A stretch of 63,646 bases of DNA, the filler included, from Chrysochromulina tobinii (lineage: Eukaryota): NCBI GenBank assembly GCA_001275005.1. It is 8 parts of 8 records of this genome, joined end to end, with 100 filler letters (N's around TTAATTAATTAA, not from the genome) between each part and the next. Parts side by side here need not be neighbours in the genome. Positions count along the whole stretch, not along the records: positions 1 to 13,410 come from JWZX01000643.1; positions 13,511 to 22,789 come from JWZX01000645.1; positions 22,890 to 31,966 come from JWZX01000646.1; positions 32,067 to 35,140 come from JWZX01000647.1; positions 35,241 to 43,970 come from JWZX01000648.1; positions 44,071 to 56,996 come from JWZX01000649.1; positions 57,097 to 60,829 come from JWZX01000652.1; 1 more part is not named here. The stretch is one strand, 5' to 3'. Each line of letters opens with the position of its first letter. Position 1 is the first letter of the stretch. Below the pieces are notes generated by a model, which was given only the letters and a program-made list of their open reading frames with translations, did no database searches and had not been told where the DNA came from. This document shows positions 331-60,759 of the stretch, in pieces. The position numbers were made by a program, and so were the translations under genes.

Positions 331-2065
331 GGCCAGGGTGGCGAACAGGGCGGAGGCTCGCCTTTCGACATGTTCTTTGGCGGCGGGCAGCGCAAAGACA
401 CCGGCCGTGGCAAGAATATGGACATCGAGCTGCCAGTGACCCTCGAAGACTTGTATGCGCGCGCCCATGGCCTCCGCTTGATTACGCTTGATTACGCTTG
501 ATTACGCTTGATTATGCTTGTGTAATGCTTGATTACGCTTGATTACGCTTGTATGCGCGCGCTCATGGCCTCGGATGGGCTCTGATTGCCTCTTGATGGC
601 CTCTGATGGCCTCTCGATTGCCTCCCTCATCAGGTACAATGGCAATGAGAAGCTCTGATTGCCTCTTGATTGCATTTGATGACCTGATGATTGCCTCCCT
701 CATCAGGTACAATGGCAATGAGAAGCTCGCGACGGTCAAGCGGCGCATCGTTTGCCGCAACTGCAAGGGCAAGGCCCACCTGCCGCGATGTGCTGAGTGC
801 GGTGCCTGCCCGAAAGAAAAGAAGATGGTACATCGGCGTGCGGGGCCTGGGATGGTGGTGCAGCAAGAGGTGCGTGCGCCGCTCAGGGCCGTTGATGACC
901 TCTAATGAGCCCTGATGAGCTCTGATGAGCTCTGATGAGCTCTGATGAGCTCTGATTGCCTCCCTCATCAGGTGCGTGCGCCGCTCAGGGCCGTTGATGA
1001 CCTCTAATGAGCCCTGATGAGCTCTGATGAGCTCTGATGAGCTCTGATTGCCTCCCTCATCAGGTGCCTCGCTCATCCAGTGTCGTTGATGACCTCTTGA
1101 GTGCCTTTGAGTGCTTCTGATTCCTGTCTATGGCAGGTCTGATGATTGAGCCGAAGGAGAAGTGATTGGCCTTGATTGCACTTGATTGCGCTGAATTGCG
1201 CTGGATTGCGCTTGATTGGCCTTGATTGCGCTTGATTGGGCTTGATTGGCAACCGTACGTTCGCCCCTTTTATGGCAGGTGATGGTCGAGTCGAAGGAGA
1301 AATGCAAGCGTGAAGACAAGCGACTCACAGCGACCATCGAGAAGGGTATGCCCTGATGAGCCCTGATGACCTCTAATGACCACTGATGACCACTGATGAC
1401 CATCGAGAAGGGTATGCCCGATGCGGAGGAGATCGTCTTCAAGTACGAGTCCGAGCATGAAAACGCTCACGACGGCGCCTCCGCTTCCCCCCCCCCCACA
1501 GGTATGCCTGATGCGGAGGAGATCGTCTTCAAGTACGAGTCCGAGCAGAAACCGGGCCAGATCCCGGGAGACGTGGTGCTCAAGCTCAAGACGACGCCCC
1601 ACCCGATGTTCACACGCTCCCGCGACTCGTTGTCGATGAAGATCGCCATCCCGCTGCGCGCGGCACTGCTGGGCTTCGAGACCTCGTTCAAGCACCTGGA
1701 TGGGCACACGGTCACGCTCAAGCGAACGACCGTGACCAAGCCGGGGCAGGTGGGCAACACGCTGATGACGACTGATGACGCGCCCTGATGACGACTGATG
1801 ACGCCCTGATGACCTCCTGATGACGCCCTGATGACCTCCTGATGACGCCCTGATGACGACTGATGACGCCCTGACGATGTCCTGGCAGGTGATCCGCATC
1901 AAGGGCGAGGGGATGCCTAAGCACGGCACGCCGTCAGAGTTCGGCGATCTGACCATCACCTTCTCAGTCGACTTCCCCACTACCGTCGAGGCGGCCCTCG
2001 CCCAGGGGCTTGAGAAGCTCCTCCCCACATTCAGCGCCTCCGACCTGCGCATCCTCAGCAGCTGA
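331..2065 (+). CDS. DnaJ/Hsp40 co-chaperone (DNAJA/DNAJB11-like), 5'-partial; exons approx 331-452, 707-869, 1279-1345, 1502-1749, 1889-2065
   Basis: Spliced exons read PFDMFFGGG..LPVTLEDL|YNG..CRNCKG..CAECGAC..TIEKG|MPD..PGDVV..HPMFTR..ALLGF..HLDG..IKGEGMP..GDLTITFSVDFP, the Hsp40 G/F, Cys-rich and C-terminal motifs. All joins are GT-AG and in frame. Confidence 0.9.
689..706 (+). promoter_or_regulatory. Recurrent 3' splice-site cassette A, GATTGCCTCCCTCATCAG (representative copy)
   Basis: Exact or near copies ending at 633, 706, 971, 1063, 40595, 58258, 60253 (+) and 6423, 6539, 6585, 6631, 7788, 7847, 15943, 20856, 21022 (-, approx). Confidence 0.85.
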
Positions 2066-3137
2066 GCGCGCCGTGTTGGGCGACCTGCGCATCCTCAGCA
2101 GCTGAGCGCGCGCCGTGTTGGGCGCATGCCGTCAGCTCGCAGGGCGGCGCCGGCCTGGGCGCGCCGTGCTGGGCATCCCTACTTCGAGACGTACGCGCCG
2201 CGACGGGCGCAGCTATAGGCCGCGGCGCTGGGCAGCGTGAACAAACTGGGCAGCGTGAACAAGGCGCCGACCGGCATGTGACGGGGCATGTGACCTTGAG
2301 ACATGTATGGTCGGGTCAGTGCTACATAGTGGGTCGCTGGGCCGCGCCGTCGCGGGCGTTATGCGTGGCTCACTGGCCGGTGGCTCTCGTGTGAGTCGTC
2401 AGCCCTACATCGCCCAACACGGCGCGCGCCCATCGGTCGCCCTCGGCCGTGCATCGTTGCTCAACTTGTGTCCCCCCGCCGGACCGGTTCGCGGTCGTCG
2501 GGGGGTGGGGGTTACGGGTGTGCGCACTTATACGTTACCGCGAATACAAGCCGAGCGGCCGGCCCCGGGGGATCGGGCTTGATGCGGCTTCGGCCTTCGG
2601 GGGTTATATGCGTCGCTCCGGCGTCTAGATCTCGCGCATCGTACGATTTGCCGTCCGCACACGCGCTGCTGTAAACGTAACACACCTCCACAGCTCGCAA
2701 CCGCCCGGCGCAGCCAACGCCTTTACGAGTACGCGACGGACCGCCGCGTGCGCGCCGCGCCCGCCGCACCGAACAAGCGCCGCCGCACGAGGGCCGAGAG
2801 CCGGGGGGCGCCGAGGCGCGCGGGACGGGCCCTTATCCACACTGACCACTCTCACGACATGCCAGTCGGCGGCTCGGCGCCTGGTGGTTCACACCTGGTG
2901 GTTCACAGGAACATAGCTGCCAAAGCATGCATCGGACACGGCAGTCCGCGTTCATGCCGAAATAGGCAAGAGGAACGGCGCATTCACAGTCCTCACGCGC
3001 CTTCATGCCAGGACGAGCTCGGAGAGGTCGATAGGTACGTATCTCGGACGTATCTCGGACGTATCTCGGGGAATTGGCTCCGCCGCCCCAATGGCGCCGT
3101 CGCGGGCGTCGTCGCGGGCGCCATCGCGGCGAGGCGC

Positions 3138-4955
3138 TCAGCCGAGGGGGACGGCGGCCGCGGCCTCATCAGGGGAGATGAACTCTTCAGCTTCGTCAGT
3201 CTTGTACAAGATCTCGAGCACCTGGGCGCGCGAGAGTGGCGCGCGAGAGTAGCGCGCGAGAGTGGCGTCATCGGTGGTGTCATCAGTGGTGTCATCGGTG
3301 GTGTCATCAGTGGTGTCATCAGCGGCACCTTGTCAAGGAAGGGGATCTGCGCCCCCTCGTAATCAATCTCGTAATCAATCTCGTAATCAATCGTAATCAA
3401 TCGTAATCAAGCGGCACCTTGTCAAGGAAGGGGATCTGCGCCCCCTCGTAATCAATCTCGTAATCAATCTCGTAATCAATCTCGTAATCAATCGTAATCA
3501 ATCGTAATCAATCGTAATCCATCGTAATCAATCGTAATCAAGCGGCACCTTGTCAAGGAAGGGGATCTGCTCCCCCTCGTGGCTCTGGCAGAGCACCTCG
3601 ACCTCGCGCAGCTTCGAGTAGTAAAAGTCACGCTGCGCGCGCACCGAGGCCAACATGACGACACTCAGTCGCACTCCGCGCGGCGCTCAGTTTCGTCAGT
3701 CGCACTCCGCGTGACGCTCAGTTTCGTCAGTCGCACTCCGCGTGACGCTCAGTTTCGTCGATCTCGCGAGGGCCATCAGGCGGCCAGCAGTGCGCCATCT
3801 CGCGCTCGAGATTCTCCGTTGCGTAATCAGTGATGTAATCAGTGGCGCCATCACACCTCGCGCTCGAGATTCTCGACGCTCATCTTGAGCTCCGTGACCT
3901 CGAGGGCGAGCTGCTTCGCGCCGCCCTGAGCGCCCGCACCGGCGCTCGACGCCGCACTGGGCACCTCCGACGCTGCCCGCGCAGACGAGGCCGGCATGCG
4001 CTTGGGCGCCTCCTTGGGCGCCGCCGTGGGCGCGGCGGGCGGCGGCTTGGGCGGCGGGGCCTCCTTAGGGGGCGCTGCCTTTTTAGGGACGGGAGGCGCC
4101 GTAGTGGCGGCAGGCTCGTTGGCCGCCTGGTCGGCGAGCGGCGCCGCTGTACCCTCGGGGGCCACGACGGCGCCGTTGGGTGCATGCATATCCCAGTAGC
4201 ACTTCATAAACTGAGAGGCACCCGGACGCGAAGGCGAGCGCCGTGGTGAGCGAGGTGAGAGGCATGCATGCAGGGGGCACGCCTCAGGGCGCCGTGGGCT
4301 GTGACGCCGTGTTGGGCAGTCGCGCCGTGTTGGGCAGGTCGGGCACTGGCGCCGTGTTGGGCAGTATCGCGCCCACGGCGGCGCCGCGGGGGCAGCGTGC
4401 AGTCGCGGGGTGCCCACGGCGGCGCCGCGGGGCCAGCGTGCAGTCGCGGGTCGCTGGCGTCCGAAGAGGTGCTCGGCGGGCGTGCCTGCACAAATTCCAT
4501 GTTGGTCTGGAAGGACTTTTTGGAGAGTTTGTCGATCTCAATGAACCGGTCGATCTTCTTCTGGCTGAACGCTTTCTGGAGCTGCTTGAAGTTGTTGATG
4601 TAGTCGACCTCGATCTTCGCGTCGCGCTTCACCTTGGCCATGACTTTGCATTCCGGGTAGATGGAGTCGATGATCTGGCAGTAGACGACGCCCGAGCCGA
4701 GGTCCTCAATTTTCTGGAAGCTCGGCTGGAAGTGCTGCTGGATCCACCCGATCAACTCCTTGCGCCCCACGAAGTAACCCTCGTGCATCTGCCATCGCCG
4801 CACGAGGCGGACGCACGCACGAGAGCATGGACGCGCGCCCGCTCAGCACGCTGGGACGCGGTGCGCGCGGCTGCGCGCATAGGCGCTGCGGACGCGCGAG
4901 GGCGATAGGCTCCGAGGGGCGGCGAGGGTCAACCCACCATGCCCATCGCCGCCAT
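3138..4955 (-). CDS. EB1: Microtubule end-binding protein EB1/MAPRE; exons 4955-4938, 4788-4486, 4210-3857, 3632-3549, 3221-3138
   Basis: MAAMGM|MHEGYFVGRKELIGWI..IEDLGSGVVYCQIID (CH domain) and ENLERE|RDFYYSKLREVEVLCQ..VLEILYKTDE (EBH domain). Confidence 0.93.
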
Positions 4956-5361: not shown

Positions 5362-6853
5362 TCAGCAGTCATAATACCCCTTGCTGCTGCTCTCCTCCTC
5401 GTCCCCCGCGGTCGCCGCCCCCCTCCTCGCCGGGGACGGCGCCCATGTCACACTCCGGTCCGTGCGCTCGGTGCGCTCGCCACAGCGCTCGGTGCGCTCG
5501 CCACAACGCGCGCTCGATGGGCGTGGCGTGCGCGTTGTGGCGAGCACCGAGTGCGTGTTCTCTAGCGCGCGGTACGTGCGAGCGACCCGCGCAGACGCGC
5601 TCCCGCCCCCCTCCCAGCCCGCGCCCCCCTCCCAGCCCCGCCCCCCTCCAGCCCCGCCCCCCTCAGCCCCGCCGCTGCCGCCCGCTTGGAAGGCGTCGAC
5701 TAGTTGGACCAGTGACGAAGCGCGCACTCGGTCGCGCATCTCGCGTGCCTCCGCATGCCTCTCGCGTAGCAGCGCCTCGCGACGCTGGTCGATCGCGCCC
5801 GCGGCGGCGCGCAGCGTGCTCGCGCCAACGCGCCTTGAGTGACTGAGGAAGGCTCGTGCCTGCTTCGTCGAGATCGCAATCTCGCTCACCTGAGGGAGGG
5901 ACGCACTCAAGTGTCATCAAGCGCAATCAGTCTGAGGAGGGACGCCATCGATCTGAGGAGGGACGCAATCAATCTGAGGAGGGATGCAATCAAGGGCCAC
6001 AAAGATCGCAATCTCGCTCACCTCCGAGCCCGAGCTCGCAATCTCGCAATCAGATCGCAATCTCGCTCACCTCGTCATGGAGCGCCTCCACGTGGCCCAT
6101 CCAACGCGCATCCCTCAGCCGCTTATCCGCCTTCCGCGCGGCCGCCTCGCGCTTGACGCCGCGCGCGCGCAGCTGGTTCAGTTTCGTCACCCGCTGCCGC
6201 TCCTGCTGCGCCAACGCCCGTTGCGACCAGGCGGCCCTCTGCAGGTCCGCGCCGTGCCGAGCGTGCTCGGCGCGCTGGGCGGCGAGGGCCTGCTCGCGCC
6301 GCACCTGTGGGGAAGGGCGAGGCGCCGTGGTGATCACTTGCATGCAAGGCACGTCATCAGTGGTAATCAGCGAGGGCCTGCTCGCGCCCGCACGTCCTCG
6401 AGGGTCATCAAGCGCAATCAATCTGATGAGGGACGCAATCAAGGGGCCACTGAGCTCGCAATCTCGCGCCGCACGTCCTCGAGCCTCGAATGCCAATACT
6501 CGGCGCGCTTGGACGCATGGAGCAGCCATCGATCATACCTGATGAGGGAGGCCATCAGAGGCGTCATTCGAGGCCATCCGGTTCCTGATGAGGGAGGCCA
6601 TCAGAGGCGTCATTCGAGGCCATCCGGTTCCTGATGAGGGAGGCCATCAGAGGCGTCATTCGAGGCGTCCTTCGAGGCAATTCGACGTACTCAGCGAGGA
6701 GCGTGCTGTCCGTGTCGAGGGCGTCAATAGGGCCACCATTCTGCTCAAGCGACGTGACCTTGCCCACGTCCTCGAGGCTGCGACATCCCTTCGCCGCGGC
6801 CAAGATGAGCCAGGACGGTGGCTCGCCGAAGCTGAAACCGCCACCCGCCGGCA

Positions 6854-6895
<42 letters not shown>

Positions 6896-8292
6896 TCTCG
6901 CCGCCCTCTCCGCCGCAGCCGCCGCGGCCTGGCGAGTGCGCACCTGTGGGGAAGGGCGAGGCGCCGTGGCGAGCACTTGCATGCGAGTGCACAGCACGGC
7001 CCGGCGAGTGCACAGCACGGCCGGGGCTGCCGGTACGTCCTCCCCCGCCAAGCGTCGCGTCCGCTCGCAGAAAGGCCGCCAGGGCAGTCACCTCCCTCGC
7101 CGCCTGTGTGGCGGCCTCGGCCGCCTCGACCGCATCCTTGGCCGCCGCCTCCGCCCCAGCTACCGATCGGTTGGTGGCGACGGTGAGCGCCGTGGTGAGC
7201 GCCGGCGAGGCGCCACAGGAGACATAAGGGGTCGACGGGCGCGCGTATGGTGGCGAGCGAGCCGAACGGCGACGAGCGTTGTCGTCGTCGTCGTCACTGT
7301 CGGCGTCGTCACTGTCGTCCTCGTCCTCGTCCTCGTCCTCGTCGCCCTCGATGCTGTTGCCGTCCTCGACGCCTAGAAAGTCCTCCGAGTACGGCGGAGG
7401 GCGCGCGAGCAGGCGCGTCGCAACCGCCGTCGCCGCATAGGATCGCTCGAGCACCTGTGGGGAAGAAGAGAGAGCGCCGTGGTGAGCACGTGCATGCGAG
7501 GCCCATCTTCGGTTCAGCGGCCGAGAGGGCGCCGTGGTGAGCACATGCATGCGAGGCGAGGGCCATCTTCGGTTCAGCGGCCGCTCGAGTACCCGTTCGG
7601 CGAGCGGCGACCGAAATTGATGGGTCAGTGCAGCACGCTCGGGCGGCGCCGGTAAGGCGAGCGCCGAGGTGAGGCGAGCGAGCCGCAGCTCATTCGCGTC
7701 GGAGCGTCCCAATCGACGATCGAGATCGGCGTGCGGCTCGATGAGGGCGTCGAGGCGCTGTGGGGAATCGAGGCGTAGCCCCATCACCTGATGAGGGAGG
7801 CAATTGGTGGCCATCAGCGGACATCATCAAGGGGCAATCAAGTTCCCTGATGAGGGAGGCAATTACCGAAGCGGGCGATGGCTCTTCACAAGGCGTCGAG
7901 CTGGGCGCTTCGGCCTTCCACAGCGGCGGCGTCGGCGTCGTGCTGGTGAAGCGCGAGCGCGTGCCGGTGGAGGCGCCGGTGGAGGTGGCGGAGGAGGTGG
8001 AGGAGGAGGTGGCGGTGGAGATGGCGGACGCGCCGGAGCGCCGTGTTGAGCTGGATCCCGCCTTAATCGCAGCTGACTCGGCGGGCTCCGGCGGCGCTGG
8101 TGTGAAGGCTCTCGCTGGTGTGAAGGCACTCGCGGCTGTGGGGGTGGCGGCTGTGGGGACGGCGACGACAGCAGCGAAACGGCCGGGGGGGCTTGGCGGA
8201 AGATCGAGTGGCGCTGGCCGGCGCCCGCCGCCACCGCCGCCGCCGCCGCTGCTGCCGCTGCTGCCACCGCTGCTGCCGCTGCTGCCACCGCT

Positions 8293-9437: not shown

Positions 9438-11630
9438 ATGAAGCGACGTCGGTTCGGCGTCGCCGGCGGCGGCGACGTCAACGGCGGCGACGACGGCGAT
9501 GTGAGGGTGCGAAGCGCCGAGGGCGAGGTGGTCGCGTGGTCCCGTTTGGCCGCGGCGCGATCGGCGGCGCTCGCCAACTGGGTGAGCGACACGGGCGGCG
9601 CCGAGGGGGCGTTCTCCACTCTGGTGCCTGCGGCTGCGCTCCGCACGCTCTCGCGCGTCGCCGAGGGCGGGGCGGAGGATGGCGGGGCGCTGGAGGGGTG
9701 CTCGCTCGCGCAGCTCGCGCAGCTGTTGCATGGCGCGCACTTTCTCGACGTGGACGTCGAGCTTCTCCGCCTCCTCTCGCGTTCCCTGTGCACTGGCCAC
9801 CTCGCCGGCAAGAGTGGCCCGGAGCTCGGGCGGCTGCTGGGCGTCAAGAGCGACTTCCCCACCGAGGCGGAGCGGCAGGCGGCGACGGAAGAGCCGATCT
9901 TCACGCATGACGCTCAGGACGACGCCATCGCTCCCGGAGCGGCGAGCTCCGACCTTAGACACCTTAAGATTGGCAACGTGGTCATTGAGTTGCCACCATC
10001 GGCGAAGGTCACCTACGGCGAGGGCGGACGCGCCGAGCTGCACCTGAACGCCTTTACTGGCAGTCTGACCGTCTTGCCGACGGCGGCCTCGATGTCCGTC
10101 AAGCGTGCTTCCGATGCACCCACACCGCCACCGCTCGTGTGCTGGCTCTCGACACAGCTCGTCAACGAGGACGCCCTCGAGGACGCCCTCGCAGACGCTG
10201 ACGTGCCGACGCTGTGTGCACTCAAGGGCGTGAGCCTCGCGTGGCGCGCGCGAGCGCGGCGCGTCCTGTGCGCGCGGCTGTGCGCACGCGTCGGCCTGCC
10301 GCTCACGAGCAACCTCGTCGAGGTGACCAAGCTCGACCTCTCGGGCAGCCGCGCCGCCGGTCGCCTCTTCGCCGACGCGGTCGACGCATCGCGCTGGCTG
10401 CCCAACCTGGCAAAGGTGACGGGGCTGGGCGGTTTCGAGGTGGACGTGGCCGCGCTGAGGAGCGTGGAGTCTTCGGATGAATCGGAAGAAGATGAAGAGG
10501 GTGAAGAGGGTCCGCCGCTGTATCCGATGGCAGGGGTACGCGCGTGCATCCGCGGCGAGGGCGAGGTGTCGATGGAGGTGCTGCTCGCCGCGTGCGTGCT
10601 GCGCGACGGTGAGGCGCACGTGCCGGCGAACGCGTTCCGCGACGACACATCGATGACGTCGATCGCGCTGCCCGCCGGCCTCACGAGCATCGGTGAGAGC
10701 GCCTTCGAGGGCTGTACCTCGATGACTTCGATCGAGCTGCCCGCCAGCCTCATGAGCATCGGTGAGTACGCCTTCTATGGCTGCTCCTCGATGACATTGA
10801 TCGAGCTACCCGCTGGCCTCACGAGCATCGGTGATTATGCCTTCCGTGGCTGCTCCTCGATGACGTCGATCGAGCTGCCCGCTGGCCTCAGGAGCATTGG
10901 TGATGGCGCCTTCATTTCCTGCTCCTCATTGACGTCGATCGAGCTGCCCGCCGGCCTCACGAGCCTCGGTGAGTACTCCTTCGAGGGCTGCTCCAGGTTG
11001 ATGTCAATCGCGCTGCCTGCCGGCCTCACGAGCATCGGTCAGTGCGCCTTCTGGGGCTGCTCCTTGATGACGTCGATCGAGCTGCCCGCCGGCCTCACGA
11101 GCCTCGGTGAGGGCGCCTTCATGAACTGCTCCTCGTTGACGTCGATCCAGCTGCCCGCCAGCCTCACGAGCATCGGTGAGTGCGCCTTCGAGGGCTGCTC
11201 CTCATTGACGTTAATCGAGCTGCCTGCCGGCCTCATGAGCCTCAGGCAGTAAGCCTTCAATGACTGCTCCGCGTTGATGTCAATCGAGCTGCCCGCCGGC
11301 CTCACGAGCCTTGGTAAGGGCGCCTTCCAGGGCTGCTCCTCGTTGACATCGATCGCGCTGCCCACCGGCCTCACAAGCATCGGTGAGTGGGCCTTCGGTG
11401 GCTGCTCCTTGATGACGTCGATCGCGCTGCCTGCCTGCCTCACGAGCATCGGCTATGAGGCCTTCCGTGAATGCTCCTCGTTGAAGTCGATCAAGCTGCC
11501 CGCTGGCCTCACGAGCCTCGGTGAGCTCGCCTTCTTTGGCTGCTCCTCGTTGGCGTCAATTGAGCTGCCCGCTGGCTTCTATGACAGCATTCTCAAATCT
11601 GCTGCAGTGCCTCCCAGCGCCATCCTTTGA
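9438..11630 (+). CDS. SKP1-like + F-box-like + BspA-type LRR (LRR_5) fusion protein, with an in-frame TAA at 11250-11252
   Basis: VRSAEGEVV..LLHGAHFLDVD..AGKSGPELGRLLGVKSDFPTEAE (SKP1-like); EDALEDALADADVPTLCALKGVSLAWR (F-box-like); about 14 repeats of 23 aa LTSIxLPAGLTSIGxxAFxxCSS. Confidence 0.8.
10620..11580 (+). repeat. 69-bp coding tandem repeats (BspA LRR units)
   Basis: Recurring ctgcccgccggcctcacgagcatcggtgag..gccttc at 69-bp spacing. Confidence 0.95.
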
Positions 11631-20747: not shown

Positions 20748-22647
20748 TCAGTGGCGCACTGTCTCCCGCAGCGTCGCCACTGCCCTGGCCTCGAGCTCGC
20801 CGGCGTCGGCAGCTGAAACGCCCCGCCGTGCGAGCTCCTCGAGGAAGCGCCCCACCTGATGAGGCAGGCAATCAGTGGAAATCAGTGGCAATCAGTGGCA
20901 ATCGAATCTCCTCGAGGAAGCACCCCACCTCCTCCTCACGCACGCCGTTGACGCCATACGCGGAGGGCTCGAGGGCCGCCGCCGAGTGGTAGAGCAGCGC
21001 GGCCTCGCGCGAGGCGACCACCTGATGAGGGAGATCATCTGTTTTAATCTCGCGCGAGGTGATCACCTTGGGTTTGGCGAGGCACTCTTAATCAGTGGCC
21101 ATCCAGTCGCACTCAGTCGCACTCAGTCGCACTCAGTTGTAATCTCGCGCGAGGTGACCACCTTGGGCTCGGCGCGATTGCCCATCTCGCGCTCGAAACG
21201 GCCGAGCGCCGTACCGAGCGCCGAGAGCCGCCGGTCCGCGCTCGCGTCGTAGCGGGCACTCGCGTCGTCATGGGCATCGCGCGCGTCCTCTCGGGCGTCT
21301 GGAGGCTCGGCAGCGTCCGCAAGCAGTGCCGCCGCCACGCACTTGGCCATCAGGCATGCGTCTACGAGGGTCTGATTCGCGCCCTGACCCTTGAACGGGG
21401 TCATTGCATGCGCGGCATCGCCCAGCAAGGTGACACGTGAGTGCCACGCGCTGGCGGCGCCCGCAACGGCGCCCTCGCCCGCAACGGCGCCCTTGCTCGC
21501 CACAGACGTTTTACGGCGCAGCGGCAGCGCGGGACGATCGAGCAGCGGCGTTCCCCAGACGGAGGAGGCGAGCGTCTCTTCGAGCATCTGCGGCACTGGC
21601 GCGTGCCAGTGCTTGCATCTCGCCTTCATCTCGGCGAGCAGCGCCGCGCCGCCCGCCCGACACAGCGCGCGCGCGGCTTCGGCGTCCTCGGCACGGAAGG
21701 AGAGTTGCCACATGGTCGTATGCGGCGGCCCCTCGTCCGCAAATAAAGGCGGTTGGCTCGTTTTTGGCGGTTGATTGCCAAGAGGGGCCTGGGCGGCGAC
21801 CTCAGCCGCGGGCGCCGTGTCGGGCACCGACTCGGTGGTGGAGGCTCGCTTCAGAGCCGCCGCGTCGTCGGTCGCGTCGCCCGGCCCCTTGGCATCCTCT
21901 AGCGGCTCGTATGGCATCGTGAACAGGCGGTGGGTGCCATCGACGGTGTAGAAGCCCTGCCGATGAAGGAGAGGATGCTGCGTGGTCGAAAGCCCGAGCA
22001 CGACGACGACGCCGACCTCGCGCAGAGCATCACCCACCTTCTGGGCGCGCACGGCGGAGCGCACGCCGTCCGCGCCAATGAGCACGCTGCCGTACGCCAC
22101 GTGCAGCTCGGGCGGCTGCGGCTCTGGCTCCGGTGGCGGTAGTGGCCGATCGTGCGCACGCTCGCCGGCCGCGCGGTCCCACTCTCTCGAGGTGCACGGC
22201 GACGCGCCGCTTCGCGGGCTGCTCTTCGTACCGGCGGAGCCGCCAGCCCCAGCGCACCGTTCCCGGCGCGAGCCGCTCATACAGCAGCTGGCGCAGCGTG
22301 TGGCGCGGCACCCGGAAGTTGCGGCCGTCGCCCGGCTTACCACTGAAGCAGATGCCAAAGTATCCAAGCACACGCCCATCCGCGGCGAACACCCAATGAC
22401 AGTTAGAGGAGGCTTGCATGTCAGTGGCTCTGATGGCATGTGTGAGCCCGAGCGACGCGAGCGCTGTGCTGCACGTCGGGCCGAGCGTGAGACCATAGCC
22501 ACGGCGAGCAACCTCCCAGCTCTCGTCCCGTTCATACACCAGGCATCGAACGCCGCGGTCTTGCAGCGCCACAGCGACAGCTAAGCCGCCAATGCCACCA
22601 CCGATGATGATTGCCTCGGCGTCACAGCTTTCCTGGGCCGCAACCAT
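20748..22647 (-). CDS. FAD-dependent monooxygenase (FAD_binding_3 type); introns 21161-21022 and 20928-20856; frame change near 22130-22185
   Basis: IIIGGGIGGLAVAVAL..VYERD, LIGADGVRSAVR and VTLLGDAAHAMTPFKGQGANQTLVDA fingerprints. Confidence 0.9.
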
Positions 22648-22943
22648 CCCGCGCTGATGCCGTCGGCGCAGGGGCGGTCACGGCTTGGCGGTGTGTGAGC
22701 TCGCTGCTGCTGCTGTGAAACACACACGCGCACAACCTCCGGACCCCCAAGCACGAGGGCCTCTATCGCTATGGACGGAGGTGTGGCCGNNNNNNNNNNN
22801 NNNNNNNNNNNNNNNNNNNNNNNNNNNNNNNNNTTAATTAATTAANNNNNNNNNNNNNNNNNNNNNNNNNNNNNNNNNNNNNNNNNNNNCCCCTCCCCCC
22901 ACCCACCCACCGCTCCTCCCCCCTCCCGATGCTCCTACTGCAG

Positions 22944-25900: not shown

Positions 25901-26494
25901 CCGGTGGTGCCCGAAGACGAAATCCCGCTTCGAAGCGCTCGTGATGGCGCTCGACCGATGACTCCGCCTTCCCGACCCGGATCTGGGCCATCGCTGCTTC
26001 AGAAGACGGACCTCATCAAGCGTAAGCTGGGCCTCAGTGGCAACGTGCCGGCTGTCGCCACTACTGCGGCCCAGCAACTGGGCGTCGACGCGACCGCCAA
26101 GACCACGGCAGCAGTCATCAACGAGTGCTACCAGCAAATCCTTTCGGCCAAAGCCATTCCGCAGGCAGGCGAGGGAGCGCCTCGACAGCCAGCCTCGACG
26201 TCGACTCGCCATCGGAGAGACAGAGGCGTTTCTGAGGAGACCGAGGAGACCGAGGCTCCCGAGGTGTCCCTGGGGGGTCATACTCTGAGTTTGGAGAGGA
26301 TCAAGCTTCGGCAAGACTCAAGCTCATCTCCGGCTTCGGAGGCGATCAGCGCGCAGATGAGGTACCTCCAGGCGAGCGAGAAGTCGATCTCGGAAGATCT
26401 AGAATCTTCGCTCGAATCGCCGCCCGCGTCGTCAGCCCCGAAGACCGGCCTTGACGCGGAACAGTCAAGGTTCATGTACATGCTGCGGGTTTAG
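22944..26494 (+). CDS. Large Pro/Ala-rich protein with SHOCT-like, IQ and SURP/SWAP motifs (5'-partial; two overlapping ORFs 23032-25638 and 25457-26494)
   Basis: LRQLNELLDDGLITPELFELKRQEVL; TIQKLARGRQAR; PEELKTIIDKTATFVARNGPDFEMRI..FSFLHANDPFHSYYRSKL. Confidence 0.65.
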
Positions 26495-26853
26495 CATTTA
26501 ACTGCGATGGACGGTTGCGGATTCAGACGAACCATAGTCGATCCAGGGCGAGCGTCAGACGCGGCGCGCGTCGGCGCTGGTGCACGCGCAGCTTCCGGCA
26601 CCGAGCAGCCGCGAACAGACCGATGGACTTTGATGGAGCATGTCAAGTGAGGTTGACTCTTGAGCGACTTTTGAGTTGAGTGAGGGGAGGCTGATGCGGC
26701 ATACGTGCTTTGTTGTTTTCTTCCGAGGTCCGCGTTTAAGGCTTGTAACGACGTAACGAAACTTGTAAGTTTCAAGTTTGGTTGGGCTGCATCTCGGTGC
26801 AACCCTGCGTTCAGCGTGCACGTTCAGCGCTGCAGCTCGGGCGCCACTCCCCA

Positions 26854-31966: not shown

Positions 31967-32086
31967 NNNNNNNNNNNNNNNNNNNNNNNNNNNNNNNNNN
32001 NNNNNNNNNNTTAATTAATTAANNNNNNNNNNNNNNNNNNNNNNNNNNNNNNNNNNNNNNNNNNNNTCGCCACCGCCACCTTCTCC

Positions 32087-40500: not shown

Positions 40501-42125
40501 CAGTGGCCGCCATCGGCTACATGTGAGCCTCGATAGCCTCGATGGCTGATTGCCACTTCTTGCCACTGATGACCTCTGATTGCCTCCCTCATCAGGTGAG
40601 CCTCGATGGCCTCGAGTGAGGAGGCCTTGCATGCAAGTGCTCACCACGGCGCGCCCCTTCCCCACAGGTGAGCCTCGATGGCCTCGAGGTACTCCGGTCA
40701 CCCGTGCACCTCCGTGTGAGTGCGGCGCCGCCCGACGTGGCGCGCTTCCAACTGACGGGCGAAGGGCTCCAGGCAGCCAACGCTGGCGAGCCCGTGCGTC
40801 TGTGCATACGCTGCTTCGACGCGTTTGGCAACCGGCTGCGGCCGCCGCACGGCTTGCCACTATCGCAGACGAACGCCGTGTTCGGCATCGCCATCGTCGA
40901 CAGCGGCAAGGGCAGCAGCGGCAGCGGCAGCAGCGGCAGCGGCAGCGGCAATAAGGGGCGAGCAGCAGCCAAGGCGAACGGTCTGACGAAGCTCCCGCGA
41001 GAGTCTCAAGAGCTCGTCAATCTGCCGGAGTTTCGTCAGGAGTTTCGTCAGGAGCAGCAGCAGCAGCAGCAGCAGCAGCTCGTTCCGCGCCAGCCGCACG
41101 TACCCCTGCGAGCAGGGCACTGCGGTGTCCTAGCCGGCCTCCGCCTCGGCTTCGACTCGATCATAGAGTCGATGCCCTTTGAGGGCAGTTGGCTTGAGGC
41201 GGACGAGTACAGCCTCGCATTGGTCGCCGAGCGCGCGGGAGATTTTGAGCTGCACGTGTGGGTCGAGCTCACGGGCCGGGGAGGTGGGCGCGCCGCACGC
41301 GAGCAGTTGCCAGGCTCGCCGCTCGCGCTGAACGTGCAGCCCTGCCGCCCTAGCGCGGCCACATCGATCATTTGCGCGCCCGAGCCGCTCAAGTCGGGAA
41401 CGCTCACGATGGCCGCGGGTCCCGCCGACATCAGCTTCCGTGTGCAGCTCCGCGACGAGTACGGGAACACGACCCCCGCTAATGAGAGAGCGCTGAAGGC
41501 ACTGGGCATCGTCGCGCACGCGCCCGACGCTGAGCGTCCTCTGTCGGTCACGCGCGTCTCGGACGCCCTCGGAGAGTGCTTGGTGTCCTACCAACCTGCT
41601 CTGTACCCGATGCTCGTGGGCGAATACCGGATCGCCATCATGCTCGGGCACGAGATCCTCGGCGAGTCGCCACTCGTCTTCGCGGTCACGCCTGGCCCAG
41701 CGGACGCCCCGAACTGCGTCATCAGCATGCCCAGCCGTGCGCCCATCTACGATCCGTACTCGAATAACCGACCCTTCAGTGCGACGCTGACGGCGTTCGA
41801 CCAGTTTGGAAACCGGCTGTGCAGGGGCGGTGCAAACGTCATGGCGCGCGTGCAGCAGGTGGAGAGAAACGGCGAGACGACGGGCGTTCCATTATCGGCG
41901 AATGTGGAGGACTGCAAGGACGGCGAATACCGCTTCACCTTCACCTGGCATCGTGTGAGCTTGGTGCTGCTGCAGGTGCGCATCGAGAACAGTGATCTCG
42001 AACCGCAGCACGTCGAATTCTTCGACCCACTCGCGCAGATGGCGCAGAGGGCGAGGGCCAAGTCACCGCCACCAGAGCAGGAGGAGAGCGACGGGGACGG
42101 TAGAGGCGAGGAATCAGAGGGTTGA
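37565..42125 (+). CDS. Filamin/ABP280 Ig-repeat protein with IQ motifs; intron 40523-40667
   Basis: FTIVARDAFD..GGDPFVV..DTGDGRYAVEF..GTYSVCVSLHGAKVAGSP and further copies; IQSIFRG and IQACARG motifs. Confidence 0.85.
40629..40667 (+). promoter_or_regulatory. Recurrent branch/acceptor cassette B, GCATGCAAGTGCTCACCACGGCGC-Yn-CCCCACAG (representative copy)
   Basis: Copies near 1455, 40629, 55244/55304/55364, 55847, 57397, 57923, 58922 (+) and 4240, 6305, 6944, 7455, 7530 (-). Confidence 0.85.
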
Positions 42126-53268: not shown

Positions 53269-53458
53269 GGACTTCAGAGGAGCGGAGGAGCCTATTTATT
53301 TCCGAGCATTATGAATCGTTAATCAGCCATCCAGGCGTGCCCTGATGATCCGGGCGCATGTTCACACGCTTTTCACACTTCCACGGGACGCAGGGCCCGA
53401 TCGTCAGCCGGACACACGACACGGCGCAAAGCCTCGCCGTCCCCGGCCGGCCGGGGCC

Positions 53459-53666: not shown

Positions 53667-53706
<40 letters not shown>

Positions 53707-55686
53707 CGGCGGCAGCGGCAGCAGCGGCAGCGGCGGCAGCAGCTGTACGACACCCGCGCGGAAAGGGCCGCTGCGCCTGTACGTGCTGGTCGGCCTCTCC
53801 CTCGCCGCGGGTACGGGGCTGGGCAAGGTCGCGTACCGGTACGTGAACTACGCGACGGGTACGGTGCTCAAGTCGATGAAGCTGCTGCCCGTGATGGCCG
53901 TCTCCGTTTGCTGGCTCCATCGGAGCTACACGAGGCTCCAGGTGGCTGCGGCCGTGCTGATGGTCGGCTCGGCCGTGTGCTTTGGGCTGGGCGAGGCGGA
54001 GCTCGAGCCGAGCTTCCATCCGCTAGGCTTGCTGCTCTCGTTTGGGTGCCTGGTCGCTCAGGTGACGAATCTGATGACCTCTGATGACCTCTGATGACCT
54101 CTGATGACCTCTGATGACCTCTGATGACCTCTGACGACCTCTGATGACCTCTGACGACCTCTGATGACCTCTGATGACCTCTGATGACCTCTGATGACCT
54201 CTGATGACCTCTGATGACCTCTGATGGTCGCTCAACAGTGATGAATCACCTCCGGATGCTCAGCACGTGATTGCCAATTGTTTGGCCACGTGATTGCCAC
54301 GTGATTGCGCATTCTGAGTGCCATAAACGTCAATTGGGTTGAGTCTCGATGATTGCCTCTGATGACCTCTGATGCCATCGATTGAGCCTCGTTGATGACC
54401 TCGGATGGCGCAGGCGCTCTGATGACCTCTGTTGACCTCTGATGATCGTTGATGACCTCTGATGGCGCAGGCGCTCCAGAACAACACGTCTGACCGGCTG
54501 CTGCGCGACTACGGTGTGAACGTTCACGAGGCGATGGCTTGGTCGAACGGTGTGGGCGCCGTCGCGGTGCTCTTTGTCACGCTATGGACGGGCGAACTGT
54601 GGAGGGCACTTGCCTATTTTGGAAACACCGGCCTCGGCTCGGCGCTGCTGCTACTGCGCTCGCTCCTCTTTTATGTGGGGGCTTTGCTCTACACGATACT
54701 CATCAGGTGAGTGACCTCGGAGTGACCTCGGAGTGACCTCGGAGTGACCTCGGAGTGACCTCGGAGTGACCTCGGAGTGACCTCGGAGTGACCTCGGAGT
54801 GACCTCGGAGGGCCATCTGAGTGACCTCTGCCGTCGACTCACTGACTGTATGCGGTGTGAATGTGAATGTGAATGCCCTCTGCCGTCGACTCACTGACTG
54901 TATGCGGTGTGAATGTGAATGCCCTCTGCCGTCGACTCACTGACTGTATGCGGTGTGAATTCACAGTGAGAGTGGGGCCGTCACCGCCGTCTTCGTGACG
55001 ACGATGAGGAAAGCGCTCACGGTGGCGCTCTCATTCCTCATCTTCCCCAAGCCATGGTGATGACCTCTGATGGCTGCTGATGACCCTTGATGGCCAATGA
55101 TGGCCAATGAATTGTCACTGATGGTCGCCGATTTCCACTGACGTCGCAGGTGCTCAAAATACTCTCTTGGGCTACTGCTGCTGCTGGCGGCCATCGTGTG
55201 CGAGGTGCGCCCCTCTCCGCTCCTCTCAGCTTGCAACGGCTCGCATGCAAGCGCCCATCACGGCGCGGCACGCCCCTCTCCGCTCCTCTCAGCTTGCAAC
55301 GGCTCGCATGCAAGCGCCCATCACGGCGCGACACGCCCCTCTCCGCTCCTCTCAGCTTGCAACGGCTCGCATGCAAGTGCCCATCACGGCGCGTCGCCTC
55401 CCCTCTCCTCCCGTCACAGGCGCGCGGCAAGCCAGCCAAGGACCATCAGCGCTCGCCGCCGCCCACCAGTGAGCATGCACGCGCTCCATATGGCGCGGTG
55501 TGCGGCGGCGCAGACGACAGCCCAGGCGCCGAGCTGGGCGCCGAGCTGCGCGGGCTGGGCGCCGTGCTGGGCGCGAGCAGCGGCGGGATGCGCGCCCGGG
55601 AGGGCGCCCGGGATGTTGCCTCTCCGGAGCCCAAGGATGATGACCACGACGGCGCGGGCGAGGAGCAGCCGCTCGTGCGCCCGTGA
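53459..55686 (+). CDS. Nucleotide-sugar/PAPS transporter (SLC35B/UAA family); exons 53459-54061, 54471-54706, 54967-55056, 55151-55204, 55420-55686
   Basis: YRYVNYATGTVLKSMKLLPVM, FHPLGLLL, GAVTAVFVTTMRKALTVALSFLIFPKP; all joins in frame. Confidence 0.9.
54071..54226 (+). repeat. Intronic decamer array (CTGATGACCT)n; an 11-mer array (GAGTGACCTCG)n follows at 54709-54809
   Basis: Direct tandem repeats. Confidence 0.95.
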
Positions 55687-56305
55687 CGAAGGCGTCGTAT
55701 TGGGCACCATGACCACGACGGCGCGGGCGAGGAGCAGCCGCTCGTGCGCCCGTGATGAAGGCGTCGTATTGGGCACCACCCGTGTGCCACCCGTGACACG
55801 TCGAATCGGCCGTTGCACTCGACCCTTCTATATGGACCTCCGCCTTGCATGCACGTGCTCACCACGGCGCCCTCGGTCGAATCGTCGTTGCACTCGACAC
55901 GGATTTTGCGTGGTATTCACGCAGCATACAGGCGTACATAGCCGCGGAGTCTAACAGATGCGTGCAGGGTGCAGCTCGAGGTTCCATAGAAAATAGGTAA
56001 CTGCTTAAAACTCGCGACCCCGGCCCCGCGACTGCCGCATGTGGCATGTGCCGTCGCGAATGAACAAGGAGCGTGCCTTCCGGCCTCACTTACTTGACCG
56101 CCCGTTAAGGCCGTGTCCATCACTCGCTCACTCACTCACTCACTCCCTCACTCCCTCACTCGATTGTGTGATATCCAGGCTCTTGGAGTGCGTGGGGACC
56201 ACGACGAAACTGACATGAAAACCTAATTAGGTTCGGCAACCCCGCGTGCGCAAAAGGCAAGCCGACGGCCGCAAAACCTCTCGTCGCGCCTGTTCTGGCG
56301 CGATC

Positions 56306-57294: not shown

Positions 57295-60200
57295 TTTTGT
57301 GACGACAAGCACCTCAAGTACATGGGCTGGCAGCTGTCCGACATCCAGTCGGCCGCGGTGCGCTTCGTGTGTACATGGCAGGCGAGTGCGCGGCGCGCAT
57401 GCAAGTGCTCATCACGGCGCCCCCTCTCCCCGCTGCACCCTGCAGGTGCGCCTCGCGTCGTTGCAGGCGCTCGGGCTCGTGTACGAGGCCTTTGACGAGA
57501 TCAAGGATCTGACGCCCATTCGCCACTTCACCGAGCGCTTCGAAACGCGGCTGCTATCGATGTTCAAGGACGTCGATGACAGTGTCGCTGTCGAGGCCAT
57601 CCGTCTCGTCACCCGGCTGCAGGCATGCCATCGCCCTGAGCGTTTCTGATTGCGCCTGTCGGTACCTGAACCACCTGTCAATACGATTGCAGGTGCTCCG
57701 CCTCCTCCAGACCTTTTGATTGCATCTGATTGCCCCTCTAATTGCCTCTGAGTGCACTCTGATCACAGGAGCTCGGCCTCCTCAAGTCCTTCGCATCGAC
57801 GAAGCGGGCGGCGCTCCATCTCATGTGCCAGCGCGACGTGCAGCCGAAGCTCTGGACGGCCCTCGGACCCCTCATCCAGCTCCACCTCAAGGTACGTTGA
57901 TTGCATGCGGAGGACCTGCCTTGCATGCAAGTGCTCACCACAGCGCTCTCGCCTCCCAACCCCACCTCAAGGACGACTCGCCCACGGCAACCAAAGGCGG
58001 CGCCGAGGCCGGTGCAAGCGGCAGCGCGGCAGCGGCAGGTGGTGGCGGCGCGATGGCGGACGGCGATGAGGGCGGCGGCGGCGGCGGCGGCGGCGGGGGC
58101 CCGACCTCGCCAAGTAAAGCGCAGCGGCAGCACCTCGCCACCGGCTCCGTCGCCCGGCTCGCCAAGTCCCCTCTCGTGCAGCTCGCATCGCTCCTACTCG
58201 CCGATCGGCAGGTAGCTCTGATGATCTCTGATTGCATGCTGATTGCCTCCCTCATTAGTGCAGCTCGCGTCGCTCCTACTCGCCGATCGGCAGGCGCACC
58301 AAATTCGGGTCGCGGACACGGAGGAGGTGGAGCCGGCGCTGGCGGACGAGGAGAAGGAGGCGAAGGAGGAGGCGGAGCTGGGTGTGCGCTGTGGGCAGTT
58401 GGTGCGCGCGATGGCGCCCATCGAGCCCGCGCTCACCAACTGGGCGGCGTACGTTGAGGTGCGATCACCTGCCTCTGATGGCCAGACTGATGATTCCGGA
58501 TGGACAGCTGATGGATGACCCCTGAGTGCCATCTGAGTGCCGTCTGAGTGCGTCTGAGTGCGCCCCTACCCTCAGGTGCTTACCACCGACGACGAAGATC
58601 TCGACCCATCCATCGAGGCGACGCTGCCCGTGATCCTTCAGCTGATGCATGCCGCCGCGATTGAGACGAACGGCCGCTTCGACGCCGCCGCCGCCGCGGA
58701 GCTCGACGAGCATGACGAGGACGAGGAGGAGGAAGACGACGACGGCGACGTGGACGACGTGGTAGGCGGGCGAGGACGTAAGAGTCGCAAGCGCAAGCAG
58801 CGCAAGGCGATCGCGGCTGTGGAAAAGACGTCGACGGCCCTCTCCACCCACCTGGCGAAGGCGATGGCGCAACTGCTCCAGCGGTTCGGTACGCATGCAG
58901 GACCGCTGCGCGCCGTACTCTGCATGCAAGTGCTTACTACGGCGCCCACCCCCCTCTCCCCACAGGTACGCATGCAAGGCCGTTGCGCACCGTGCTCGCG
59001 CTCGTGCAGCAGATGCGCCTCGCGTCCGCCCAGGCGACGCTGAAGGACAAGGCGTTCGAGAAGATACTCTCGGAGCTCGAAGACGTGACGACCAAGTACG
59101 CTGATGGCCTCTGATGGCTTCTGATGACCACCTGATGGCCCTCTGATGACCACCTGATGACCACCTGATGACCACCTGATGACCACCTGATGACCACCTG
59201 ATGACCACCTGATGACCACCTGATGACGCCATATGACGCCATATGACGCCTGATGACGGCTGATTACATTCGGAAGTGAATGTCTCGTTGATCAGGCACA
59301 CCGACCGGGCGACGCTCGAGGCTTGCGGCGAAGCATGGTCCGCGCTCCTGGCCCAGCCCGGGGCGCCCGCGCTGCAAGAGAAGGTGCAACGTCGATTCGA
59401 CAAGCTCGTCGAACGCCTCCTTCTCCAGCTCAAGACGCTCAAGACGGCGCTCAAGAAGCCGAGCTCGGCCCAGGGAGATCCGCCGAGATTCGGGCTCGTG
59501 TCGGAGGCGCTCGTGACGCTCCACCGGCTCGAGAGCCTCACCAAGGGCCAACGGCAGCCGCTGCCTGGCCTCTCGGGCCTGCTGGGTGGGCTGCTGCAGG
59601 TGAGGGCCGCTGATTGCATCGGATGACCTCTGATTGCCACTGATTACCTCTGATGGGCACTCGGGCCTGCTTGGTGGGCTGCTGCAGGTGAGGGTCGATG
59701 GATTGCCACCGAGTGCCGCTGAGTGCCGCTGCCCTGCCAAGGATAGCCATGGATGGCCACTGACGGCCATCTCCTCTGTTGCAGATGGCGCAGACCAAGG
59801 ACCTCTTCGGGGCCGTGGACACGTACATGAGCCACCAACACGACATTGAAGCCATCCTTCGGGGGGACTCGATGGGCGCTGGAGCAGCGGCATCGAGCGG
59901 CGCGGCTGCCAAGGGAGGCAAGAGCGGCAGCGGCAAGGGCCGCGGCGGCGGCAAGGGCCGCGGCGGCAGCAAAGGCGGCGGCGGCAAGGGCGGCGGCGGC
60001 AAGGGCCCCTCGTCGCCCACAACGGCGCGTCACATAGCCGAGCTCGAGGCGCATGCGCCCACGACGGCGCTCGCGGGCCGGCTGGCCGGCTGCGTGTGCT
60101 CGCTGTTCCGGCTGCAGCTGGCGCAGCTCGTGCTGCGCGTCGAGGCGTTGGTCGTCGCTAAGAGTGACGACGAGACAGCTGTGCGCGAGCTGCTGATGAC

Positions 60201-60759
60201 CTCTGATGACCTCTGATGGCCTCTGATGACCTCTTGATCGCCTCCTTCATCAGGTTCGCGAGCTCGTTGGGCTGCGCCGCGAGCTGCTGCCGAGCCTCCA
60301 AGCGCTCATCGAGGGTTCGTCAGGTGAGCACCGCGGATTGCAGCCACTGATTGCGATGGATTGCGACTGATGAGCTGCTGAGCCTCCAAAGCGCGCCTCG
60401 AGGGTTCGTCAGTCTCTCTCGCGCAGCTCGCACTCGAGATGCTGAGTGCGATGGCCATCACGCTCCACAAGTACCTCGAAAGCGTCGCGTCCGTGGATGA
60501 GCACGCCATTGCGCTGCGGGAGCGCCTCGCTACCAAGCGACTCGAGGCGGAGGCTGCCAAGGACGACCTGTGGCTCACGAGCACCAAGCTCTCCAAGCTG
60601 CAGGAGGAGAATAAGGTGATCAACAAGGAGATCAAGGAGGCGTCCAAGGAGCTGCGTTACCACGAGACGGCCAAGGAGAGGCTCGGTGCCGAGCTTCGTC
60701 AACTTGCCGAGCTGCGCATCGGCCTGCCGCGCGTGATGAGCCTGCGTGGCGGCAGCAGC

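What the first reader, a model, noticed from the sequence alone, without database searches (positions are those of the whole stretch)
453..60412. Candidate intron-generating system: exon-boundary duplication plus a shared acceptor cassette
Seen in the sequence: in at least seven unrelated genes on different contigs, introns begin with (or contain) a 10-60-nt copy of the adjacent exon, followed by a TGA-rich short-unit array and cassette A or B ending in AG. The cleanest case is 20928-20856 (-): GAG|GTGGGGTGCTTCCTCGAGGAG..(CTGATTGCCA)n..CTGCCTCATCAG|GTGGGGCGCTTCCTCGAGGAG. Other cases are 634-706, 1346-1501, 6070-5890, 7592-7455, 21161-21022, 40523-40667, 57358-57445, 57892-57971, 58889-58965, 60181-60253 and 60324-60412. 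The duplicated exon GT supplies the donor and the cassette supplies the branch point and acceptor, so splicing restores the ORF exactly. Established: Introner transposons in Micromonas and Aureococcus have terminal inverted repeats and short fixed target-site duplications, and duplication of AGGT-containing exon sequence is a proposed intron-gain route. Inference: the duplications here are long and variable, no TIRs are visible, and only the 3' end is shared. That fits templated insertion during break repair or a 3'-anchored retro-type insertion better than classical Introners. Copies range from identical to diverged, implying activity over time.
Basis: partly seen in the sequence, partly recalled or inferred. 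Interest (0 to 1): 0.92.

Follow-up and report, generated by a model that had tools for sequence, protein, structure and literature searches.

The report
Introns patched together from neighbouring DNA
In a freshwater alga, many introns consist of a near-exact copy of the adjacent coding sequence joined to a piece shared with other introns, which likely records error-prone DNA repair pasting intron parts into new places and would make this alga a rare live model of how new introns are born.

Summary
The window is from Chrysochromulina tobinii or its immediate kin. In 0.8 Mb of related lake and culture contigs, 185 of 305 cassette-A and 74 of 125 cassette-B acceptors have a copy of the downstream sequence just upstream (null 4.5% and 1.3%). 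RNA contigs splice these introns out. One lake DNA contig lacks exactly intron 1346-1501, a paralog pair shows another empty site, and five array introns of DnaJ and EB1 are absent from other haptophytes. Best reading: microhomology-driven template switching makes a 10-45 nt duplication plus filler copied from another intron; selection keeps GT-AG units of 64 nt or more. An RNA template is the main rival. It is not a classical Introner; a published survey lists zero families for C. tobinii.

The parts
453..706 (+). DnaJ intron of two stacked units (453-633, 634-706); cassette A at 616-633 and 689-706; 22-nt copy of the downstream exon at 634-655
   Evidence: position read through without break in 4 of 4 relative clusters on long contigs
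870..1278 (+). DnaJ intron of stacked array units; cassette A at 954-971 and 1046-1063
   Evidence: position unbroken in 4 of 4 relative clusters
1346..1501 (+). DnaJ intron: array, 14-nt copy of upstream exon (1398-1411), 53-nt copy of downstream exon (1412-1465), B-type end; absent in one lake DNA contig
   Evidence: table 8, run X11 record 1 joins 1037-1353 to 1510-1628; unbroken in 4 of 4 relative clusters
1750..1888 (+). DnaJ intron with arrays but no exon copy; probably an old intron invaded by arrays
   Evidence: no flank copy; P0212/P0223 leave the frame at the same codon, 3 other clusters read through
3222..3548 (-). EB1 array intron with repeated 34-nt copy of the upstream exon end and donor
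   Evidence: unbroken in DNA-derived relatives P0037, P0074/75/78
3633..3856 (-). EB1 array intron with 18-nt copy of the upstream exon end
   Evidence: unbroken in P0033, P0037, P0074/75/78, which retain other introns in frame
4211..4485 (-). EB1 GC-AG intron at a position shared with relative P0033; holds a B-like fragment near its 3' end
5890..6070 (-). intron with 19-nt downstream-exon copy (twice) and cassette-A variants
   Evidence: no RNA joint shown
6305..6690 (-). cluster of cassette A (6423-6440, 6539-6556, 6585-6602, 6631-6648) and B (6323-6345) units; exact intron limits not fixed
7455..7592 (-). intron with two B cores and a short (10 of 11 nt) exon copy
   Evidence: RNA joint in X14; copy not significant alone
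20856..20928 (-). type case: 21-nt copy of downstream exon (20 of 21) supplies GT, then 10-mer array and cassette A supply branch-point-like motifs and AG; FAD monooxygenase gene
   Evidence: not covered by a read-laying run
21022..21161 (-). intron with 18-nt downstream-exon copy, array, and an inner second copy of the exon/donor junction
40523..40667 (+). filamin-repeat gene: unit A (40523-40595) followed by unit B (40596-40667), both starting with the same 21-nt exon copy
   Evidence: identical in independent locus L119
55820..55900 (+). B core cut short before its AG, between two ~24-nt direct repeats, downstream of a stop codon (likely 3' UTR): a non-intron product of the same process
   Evidence: sequence
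57358..57445 (+). cohesin SA intron, decayed exon copy plus B
   Evidence: RNA joint in X12 and X13
57892..57971 (+). cohesin SA intron of the mirror type: filler starts at its own donor, B core is cut short, copy of upstream exon supplies AG
   Evidence: RNA joint of 80 nt with 11 ambiguous letters, compatible with these ends; same 5' start in L030, L042, L087
58212..58293 (+). cohesin SA intron: array plus cassette A, then 35-nt copy of the upstream exon supplying the used AG
   Evidence: single copy of the exon peptide in P0001
58889..58965 (+). cohesin SA intron: 32-nt decayed downstream-exon copy plus B
   Evidence: RNA joint in X12 and X13
59600..59784 (+). cohesin SA intron with arrays and a 34-nt copy of the upstream exon end
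   Evidence: RNA joint, and bridged whole by DNA contigs of X3 and X5
60181..60253 (+). cohesin SA intron: 11-nt exon copy, array, cassette A
60324..60412 (+). cohesin SA intron of the mirror type: 38-nt copy of upstream exon supplies AG

Best explanation
These are spliced introns built from a 10-45 nt copy of the flanking exon plus a same-strand piece shared with other introns, likely made when DNA repair or replication synthesis jumps by microhomology onto another intron, copies part of it and rejoins behind its starting point. Shown: the anatomy, the splicing, absence in relatives, empty sites, microhomology at the exon/filler joint, variable filler ends, a sense bias and a local excess of donors. 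Inferred: the 3' end of a broken or stalled strand at exon position p+k primes on a 10-mer array or cassette of a donor intron (often in the same gene), extends 20-70 nt, and re-anneals at p, duplicating k nt (polymerase-theta/SD-MMEJ-like or fork template switching). Selection then keeps only products that read GT...branch point...AG over 64 nt or more; the duplicate may give the GT, the AG or both. Each new intron is a further donor and a slippage hotspot, so units stack at splice junctions, arrays invade old introns, and a few intron-end sequences have amplified to the order of ten thousand copies without any transposase or fixed ends.
For: Exon copy in 185 of 305 A and 74 of 125 B acceptors vs 4.5% and 1.3%. 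Microhomology of 3 nt or more in 20 of 65 clean joints vs 1 of 55 control positions; about 7% is expected for blunt joints (my arithmetic). Three splice-site solutions from one kind of event; cut-short cassettes. Best filler match lies within 3 kb on the same strand for 24 of 213 A sites (2.6 expected) and 12 of 88 B sites (2.7 expected), i.e. 17 and 7 distinct pairs, some with private variants; cassette density falls from 7.8 to about 2 per 10 kb with distance from a seed. Inverted and hairpin fillers with the same duplication footprint in L071, L024, L055, which an excised sense RNA cannot template directly. Floor at 64 nt (0 of 43 B, 7 of 72 A below); no bias modulo 3. Plain tandem duplications without filler are common in the window (57 hits incl. 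arrays). SD-MMEJ gives direct, inverted and multi-round patchwork insertions (PMC2943611, passages). Newness.
Against: Strong sense and genic bias (254 sense, 17 antisense, 11 non-coding of 306 classified clusters; background 37/37/15%) is easier for an RNA template; DNA copying from distant loci should leave many neutral intergenic and antisense copies. Most fillers cannot be traced to a local donor; mean local similarity for A is not significant (p=0.087). Many cassettes end exactly at AG, including a few where that AG is not used (58212-58293, L024). Unit length stays near 78 nt whatever the duplication length (rho -0.71 vs -0.21 under a length floor, 45 clean A units; not significant for 16 B units), which this model does not predict. 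Duplications of 10-45 nt and donors hundreds of bases away exceed what the SD-MMEJ passages describe. No repair gene of this alga was examined.
Confidence: 0.5

Rival explanations
1. RNA-templated: the donor is the gene's own pre-mRNA, an excised lariat, or a transcript into which an intron was reverse-spliced; a break in the gene is repaired on this RNA or its cDNA. If the broken end pairs in register beside the inserted intron, exon letters overwrite the first or last k bases, keeping total length.
For: Sense and genic bias, same-gene donors, exact AG or GT ends, constant unit length with mirror-image types, near-full-length donor-to-acceptor forms with only a short duplication (L101). Local intron propagation is reported in Oikopleura (as cited in 10.1101/051292, part 1 read); sense-only, nested Introners in Micromonas (PMC3879977, passages).
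Against: Inverted and hairpin fillers; fillers cut at both ends, made of arrays only; no 10-nt periodicity in unit length; cis DNA copying also gives sense orientation and local donors; reverse splicing is shown only under special conditions (PMC3443670, passages).
Confidence: 0.27
2. A short non-autonomous mobile element (SINE-like, target-primed reverse transcription) with a fixed 3' end at AG, 5' truncation and long variable target-site duplications; the other types are later rearrangements.
Against: Mirror type with intact 5' start and cut 3' end; two unrelated 3' ends with highly variable tails; no A-tail seen; almost no intergenic or antisense copies; local donors with private variants; no Rfam match.
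Confidence: 0.12
3. No net gain: old introns are renewed when duplications across their junctions and ectopic conversion overwrite them, followed by loss of the old part.
For: 41 of 160 A and 16 of 65 B units stack directly behind an earlier acceptor; 1750-1888 and 4211-4485 are at shared positions; between-sample differences in 10 aligned pairs were inside or at the ends of introns; relatives may have lost introns; long repeats also allow precise deletion, so an empty allele may be a loss.
Against: Five array-intron positions in DnaJ and EB1 are unbroken in every DNA-derived relative tested; empty allele; empty paralogs L003 and L077 for the L046 unit; GT follows 120 of 214 non-seed A and 90 of 136 B acceptors, as donor capture requires; 10 introns in 3.7 kb of one gene against about one per gene on average (PMC4580454, passages).
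Confidence: 0.09
4. Assembly artefact of short reads at repeats.
For: Arrays break assemblies; only contigs, no long or raw reads, were available.
Against: Copies differ from their exons by point changes; RNA contigs splice them; independent DNA contigs bridge 59600-59784 (X3, X5) and 40523-40667 (L119); same footprint in 125 loci from many assemblies.
Confidence: 0.02

Closest known systems
Intron gain by double-strand-break repair in Daphnia pulex (PMC4202315: abstract and passages)
   Same: Recent, polymorphic introns; direct repeats read as staggered-break repair; repeated events at one site.
   Different: Here the filler is a recognisable family copied from other introns in the sense strand, the repeat is a 10-45 nt exon copy that supplies a splice site, and the scale is thousands rather than about 90-120 introns.
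Intron gain by tandem genomic duplication of AG|GT exon sequence (PMC3443670 passages; Hellsten 2011 seen only as a search listing)
   Same: Duplicate supplies GT, AG or both; coding sequence restored exactly.
   Different: The duplicate is too short to be an intron alone; foreign filler adds branch-point-like arrays and length.
Introners with a duplication-derived splice site: Aureococcus/Symbiodinium/Polarella classes and marine Chrysochromulina MAG family 5 (PMC9860276 passages; 10.1101/2020.10.14.339549 sections 4-5)
   Same: Repeated intron sequence, one site carried and one co-opted, flexible splice-site solutions, patchy recent gain.
   Different: Those have fixed duplications of 3-8 nt per family and end-to-end similarity, often inverted ends; here duplications are long and variable, ends are not fixed, no inverted ends.
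Fungal introner-like elements, Micromonas IE-A and Oikopleura local intron propagation (PMC3879977 and PMC3443670 passages; Oikopleura only as cited in 10.1101/051292)
   Same: Sense-strand, genic, nested or merged copies; neighbours in one gene can be related.
   Different: Those copy whole introns without long duplications; here no stable fold (mean z 0.39, 0 of 60 below -2) and only parts are copied.
Synthesis-dependent microhomology-mediated end joining by polymerase theta (PMC2943611 passages)
   Same: Templated direct and inverted insertions, microhomology, multi-round patchwork.
   Different: Described at induced breaks with nearby templates and short insertions, not as a genome-wide source of introns.

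Membership tests
Introner (Gozashti 2022 definition) | Sequence similarity reaching both intron boundaries between family members | tested here: not met
   5' part is a locus-specific exon copy of median 27-28 nt; criterion read in PMC9860276. A minority share a 5' start.
Introner (Gozashti 2022 definition) | Repeated sequence that creates spliced introns at new positions | tested here: met
   RNA joints; absence in relatives; empty sites.
DNA-transposon (MITE-type) Introner | Terminal inverted repeats of 6 nt or more | tested here: not met
   6 of 108 introns reach 6 nt at their ends vs 9 of 108 controls; filler-end matches of 6-8 nt in 21 of 103 are unanchored matches within arrays.
DNA-transposon (MITE-type) Introner | Short target-site duplication of fixed length (3-9 nt) | tested here: not met
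   10-43 nt in clean units; 10th-90th percentile 17-52 (A) and 16-40 (B).
Non-LTR/SINE-type insertion | Fixed 3' end with 5' truncation | tested here: inconclusive
   True of 107 units, but 58 units take the AG from the duplicate and cassettes are also cut at the 3' end.
Non-LTR/SINE-type insertion | Insertion in both orientations and between genes | tested here: not met
   254 sense, 17 antisense, 11 non-coding by a codon-usage score, several of the latter misclassified on inspection.
Non-LTR/SINE-type insertion | Partner autonomous element with reverse transcriptase | not testable with these tools
   No genome held.
Fungal introner-like elements | Stable predicted secondary structure | tested here: not met
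   Mean z 0.39 over the first 60 of 108 units, none below -2, doublet shuffle.
Intron gain by break repair / tandem duplication | Direct repeat of exon sequence spanning the new intron's borders | tested here: met
Intron gain by break repair / tandem duplication | Microhomology and templated filler, both orientations | tested here: met
   20 of 65 joints with 3 nt or more; local donors; rare inverted fillers.
Intron gain by break repair / tandem duplication | Dependence on an end-joining polymerase | not testable with these tools
   Needs genetics.

The most novel reading that the evidence does not exclude
A transposase-free intron factory: intron ends act as self-amplifying repair templates, possibly as the gene's own RNA, and have written a large share of this alga's introns, thousands in all, with a length-conserving exon-overwrite footprint not described for any Introner.
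Probability: 0.35. Interest if true: 0.93.

Novelty: new variant of a known kind. Interest (0 to 1): 0.83.

Why it matters
How new spliceosomal introns arise is a long-open question, and a recent survey proposes that ongoing gain is mainly due to transposons (PMC12130899 abstract passage). This alga was in that survey with zero families, because the pipeline needs similarity at both intron ends. Yet a rough extrapolation gives about 15,000 cassettes in 59 Mb, stacked copies included, in a genome of about 16,800 genes with about one intron each. So a second, large route to intron gain may be invisible to present screens. Each event carries its own record (duplication length, microhomology, donor, age by divergence of the copy), the species is cultured and reported as probably haploid, and at least one site is polymorphic in lakes, so repair-based and RNA-based models become directly testable.

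Tried and rejected
Viral contigs: 0 hits for A, 1 for B (L001, at a contig end); prokaryote genomes: 0 for B. Rfam: 0 matches in window, L001, L087, L101. A 10-nt periodicity of unit length that I thought I saw by eye is absent. The first length-compensation test is confounded by error in the copy's end; it survived for A but not B in the clean set. The first intergenic count (108 'non-coding' clusters) was inflated by neighbouring introns and was redone. A second 'empty site' (L061) was a self-match and was dropped. Of 95 single units screened, 25 had both flanks in another locus, many being the same contig or strain; only L046 had empty counterparts. DNA runs X3 and X5 showed no joint at the RNA-spliced introns listed; X18 holds too little of the stretch to inform. 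Read depth over cassettes (about 21,000-35,000 vs 10-20) is not a copy number and was not used as one. KOO35674.1 is the 5' part of the same DnaJ gene, not a paralog that could explain the empty form. Sharing of the dominant 10-mer unit declines with distance only modestly (15 of 85 pairs under 300 nt vs 6.0% between loci), and close pairs may be one intron. Replitrons (variable duplications, fuzzy ends; 10.1101/2022.12.15.520654 passages) were considered; no terminal repeats or element ends fit. An AATTAGG motif is 4-fold enriched but mostly an array variant.
Full report
Setting. The window is eight contigs joined by N linkers. The spliced DnaJ gene equals KOO36070.1 of Chrysochromulina tobinii exactly and cohesin SA exons are 85-98% identical to KOO33670.1; runs holding the DNA are lake and mixed-culture metagenomes.

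The observation. All 12 stretches are GT-AG; 10 of 12 have a significant exon copy. Cassettes A and B occur 16 and 12 times in the window against about zero in shuffles. Removing the introns restores the frames. RNA contigs skip 57358-57445, 57892-57971, 58459-58575, 58889-58965, 59096-59295, 59600-59784 and a 146-nt intron near 57620, and 4789-4937 and 7455-7592; both joint tables were cut. In the loci, after collapsing 628 hits to 481 distinct contexts, 185 of 305 A and 74 of 125 B acceptors with enough flank have a copy of the downstream sequence within 250 nt upstream, against 4.5% and 1.3% for swapped pairs. Alleles from different samples may be counted twice.

Anatomy. A unit is a copy of exon (median 27-28 nt) plus filler, median 78 nt in all, with a floor near 64 nt and no bias modulo 3. 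Filler is made of 10-mer units that each hold a CTGAT-like motif (branch-point role recalled from the general consensus, not mapped here), ending in cassette A, or of cassette B. An unbiased repeat search gave 381 events: 107 where the duplicate supplies GT, 31 where it supplies AG, 27 with AG|GT inside it, 30 fitting GC-AG, and 186 with no GT-AG option, largely array self-matches or misplaced boundaries. Several fillers start at a shared donor and run through array into B (57892, L030, L042, L087, L101), so A and B are linked, and both ends can be cut. 41 of 160 A and 16 of 65 B units stack directly behind an earlier acceptor, as at 634-706 and 40596-40667.

Are the positions new? (1) DNA run X11, record 1 (436 nt, depth 3) joins 1037-1353 to 1510-1628: it lacks the 156 nt of intron 1346-1501 while keeping upstream intron sequence; its 1572 variant is also on an X6 contig whose listed piece starts at 1510, the other part not shown. 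This is one low-depth contig, and long repeats permit precise loss, so direction is not proven. (2) The unit in L046 is absent from paralogs L003 and L077 (86% and 81% identical). (3) Database proteins called without regard to introns (inferred from P0021-P0029, which read into introns) serve as outgroups. EB1 relatives in three clusters that retain other introns in frame read straight through 3633-3856, and two of two testable through 3222-3548, whereas 4211-4485 is shared with P0033. DnaJ relatives in four clusters on contigs of 18-206 kb read through 453-706, 870-1278 and 1346-1501; one of four breaks at 1750-1888, which has arrays but no exon copy. Caveats: a long contig is taken as genomic, and relatives may have lost introns. 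So exon-copy introns are mostly new positions, and arrays also invade old introns.

Mechanism. The joint between exon copy and filler shows microhomology (20 of 65 with 3 nt or more; control 1 of 55). Donors are enriched locally: 24 of 213 A and 12 of 88 B sites have their best match within 3 kb on the same strand (2.6 and 2.7 expected), for example 49 of 50 nt shared across 147 nt in L061 and across 716 nt in L063; but most sites cannot be assigned and mean local similarity for A is not significant. Orientation is sense (254 vs 17; background equal) and non-coding contexts are depleted (11 of 306 vs 15%; crude codon score trained on 12 window frames). A few inverted or hairpin fillers carry the same footprint. 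No inverted ends, no stable fold, no Rfam match. I therefore favour DNA template switching by microhomology with selection for spliceable products (0.5). The RNA-template rival (0.27) explains strand, genic bias, exact ends and the one result my model leaves unexplained: filler shortens as the copy lengthens (rho -0.71 vs -0.21 for 45 clean A units; not significant for 16 B). A SINE-like element (0.12) fits only the commonest type; renewal alone (0.09) fails the outgroup test.

Comparison and novelty. It works like break-repair gain in Daphnia and AG|GT tandem duplication combined with copying of intron sequence (PMC4202315, PMC3443670, PMC2943611; passages). It fails the Introner tests of two-ended similarity, fixed short duplication and inverted ends; Polarella classes have fixed 3-8 nt duplications (sections 4-5 read). 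C. tobinii and C. parva are in the 2022 survey's genome list and each name occurs only there in the supplement; the 2025 dataset gives C. tobinii zero families. The genome paper mentions introns once, as about one per gene (passages). Ten searches of the open literature showed no description of this pattern; most hits were seen as listings only, and subscription papers and some supplements were not seen.

Verdict. Real, recent, widespread and apparently undescribed; a new variant of repair- and duplication-based intron gain in which intron parts are the amplified template. Interest 0.83.

Noticed in passing
L062 3000-6300 (+): One gene with about ten exon-copy introns every 100-150 nt, most sharing one array variant; the best showcase of spread within a gene.
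   Followed up: partly
L071 7352-7440: Perfect 29-nt duplication around a hairpin filler with array units on both strands.
   Followed up: partly
L038 vs L075: Near-identical copies differ by a new cassette-A unit behind an older B acceptor, and by a 96-nt unrelated insert with a 7-nt duplication.
   Followed up: partly
window 2041-2124, 4368-4450, 16023-16149, 25294-25374, 30201-30260, 55634-55776: Plain tandem duplications of 30-69 nt without filler, in exons (in frame) and at gene ends; the genome seems to have a high duplication rate.
   Followed up: partly
window 11250-11252: In-frame stop inside a BspA-type leucine-rich-repeat array that continues to about 11576.
   Followed up: no
window 32169-33210: Gene of 153-nt repeats whose frame appears to shift near 32360.
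   Followed up: no
window 25169, 51573, 51870, 52584, 56222: Recurrent CC(A/T)AATTAGG motif, resembling a telomere repeat (recalled), inside GC-rich frames.
   Followed up: partly
window 57445-57620, 59342-59603: RNA runs X12 and X13 hold contigs about 8-11% diverged beside identical ones: a second haplotype or paralog of the cohesin SA gene.
   Followed up: no
window 26854-31965: 5-kb intron-free ABC transporter frame; cassette introns cluster in some genes and skip others.
   Followed up: partly
PMC12130899 file 8: Emiliania huxleyi family 24 (5 copies) is noted with 10-bp terminal direct repeats, co-opted 5' and carried 3' site; a possible distant parallel.
   Followed up: no
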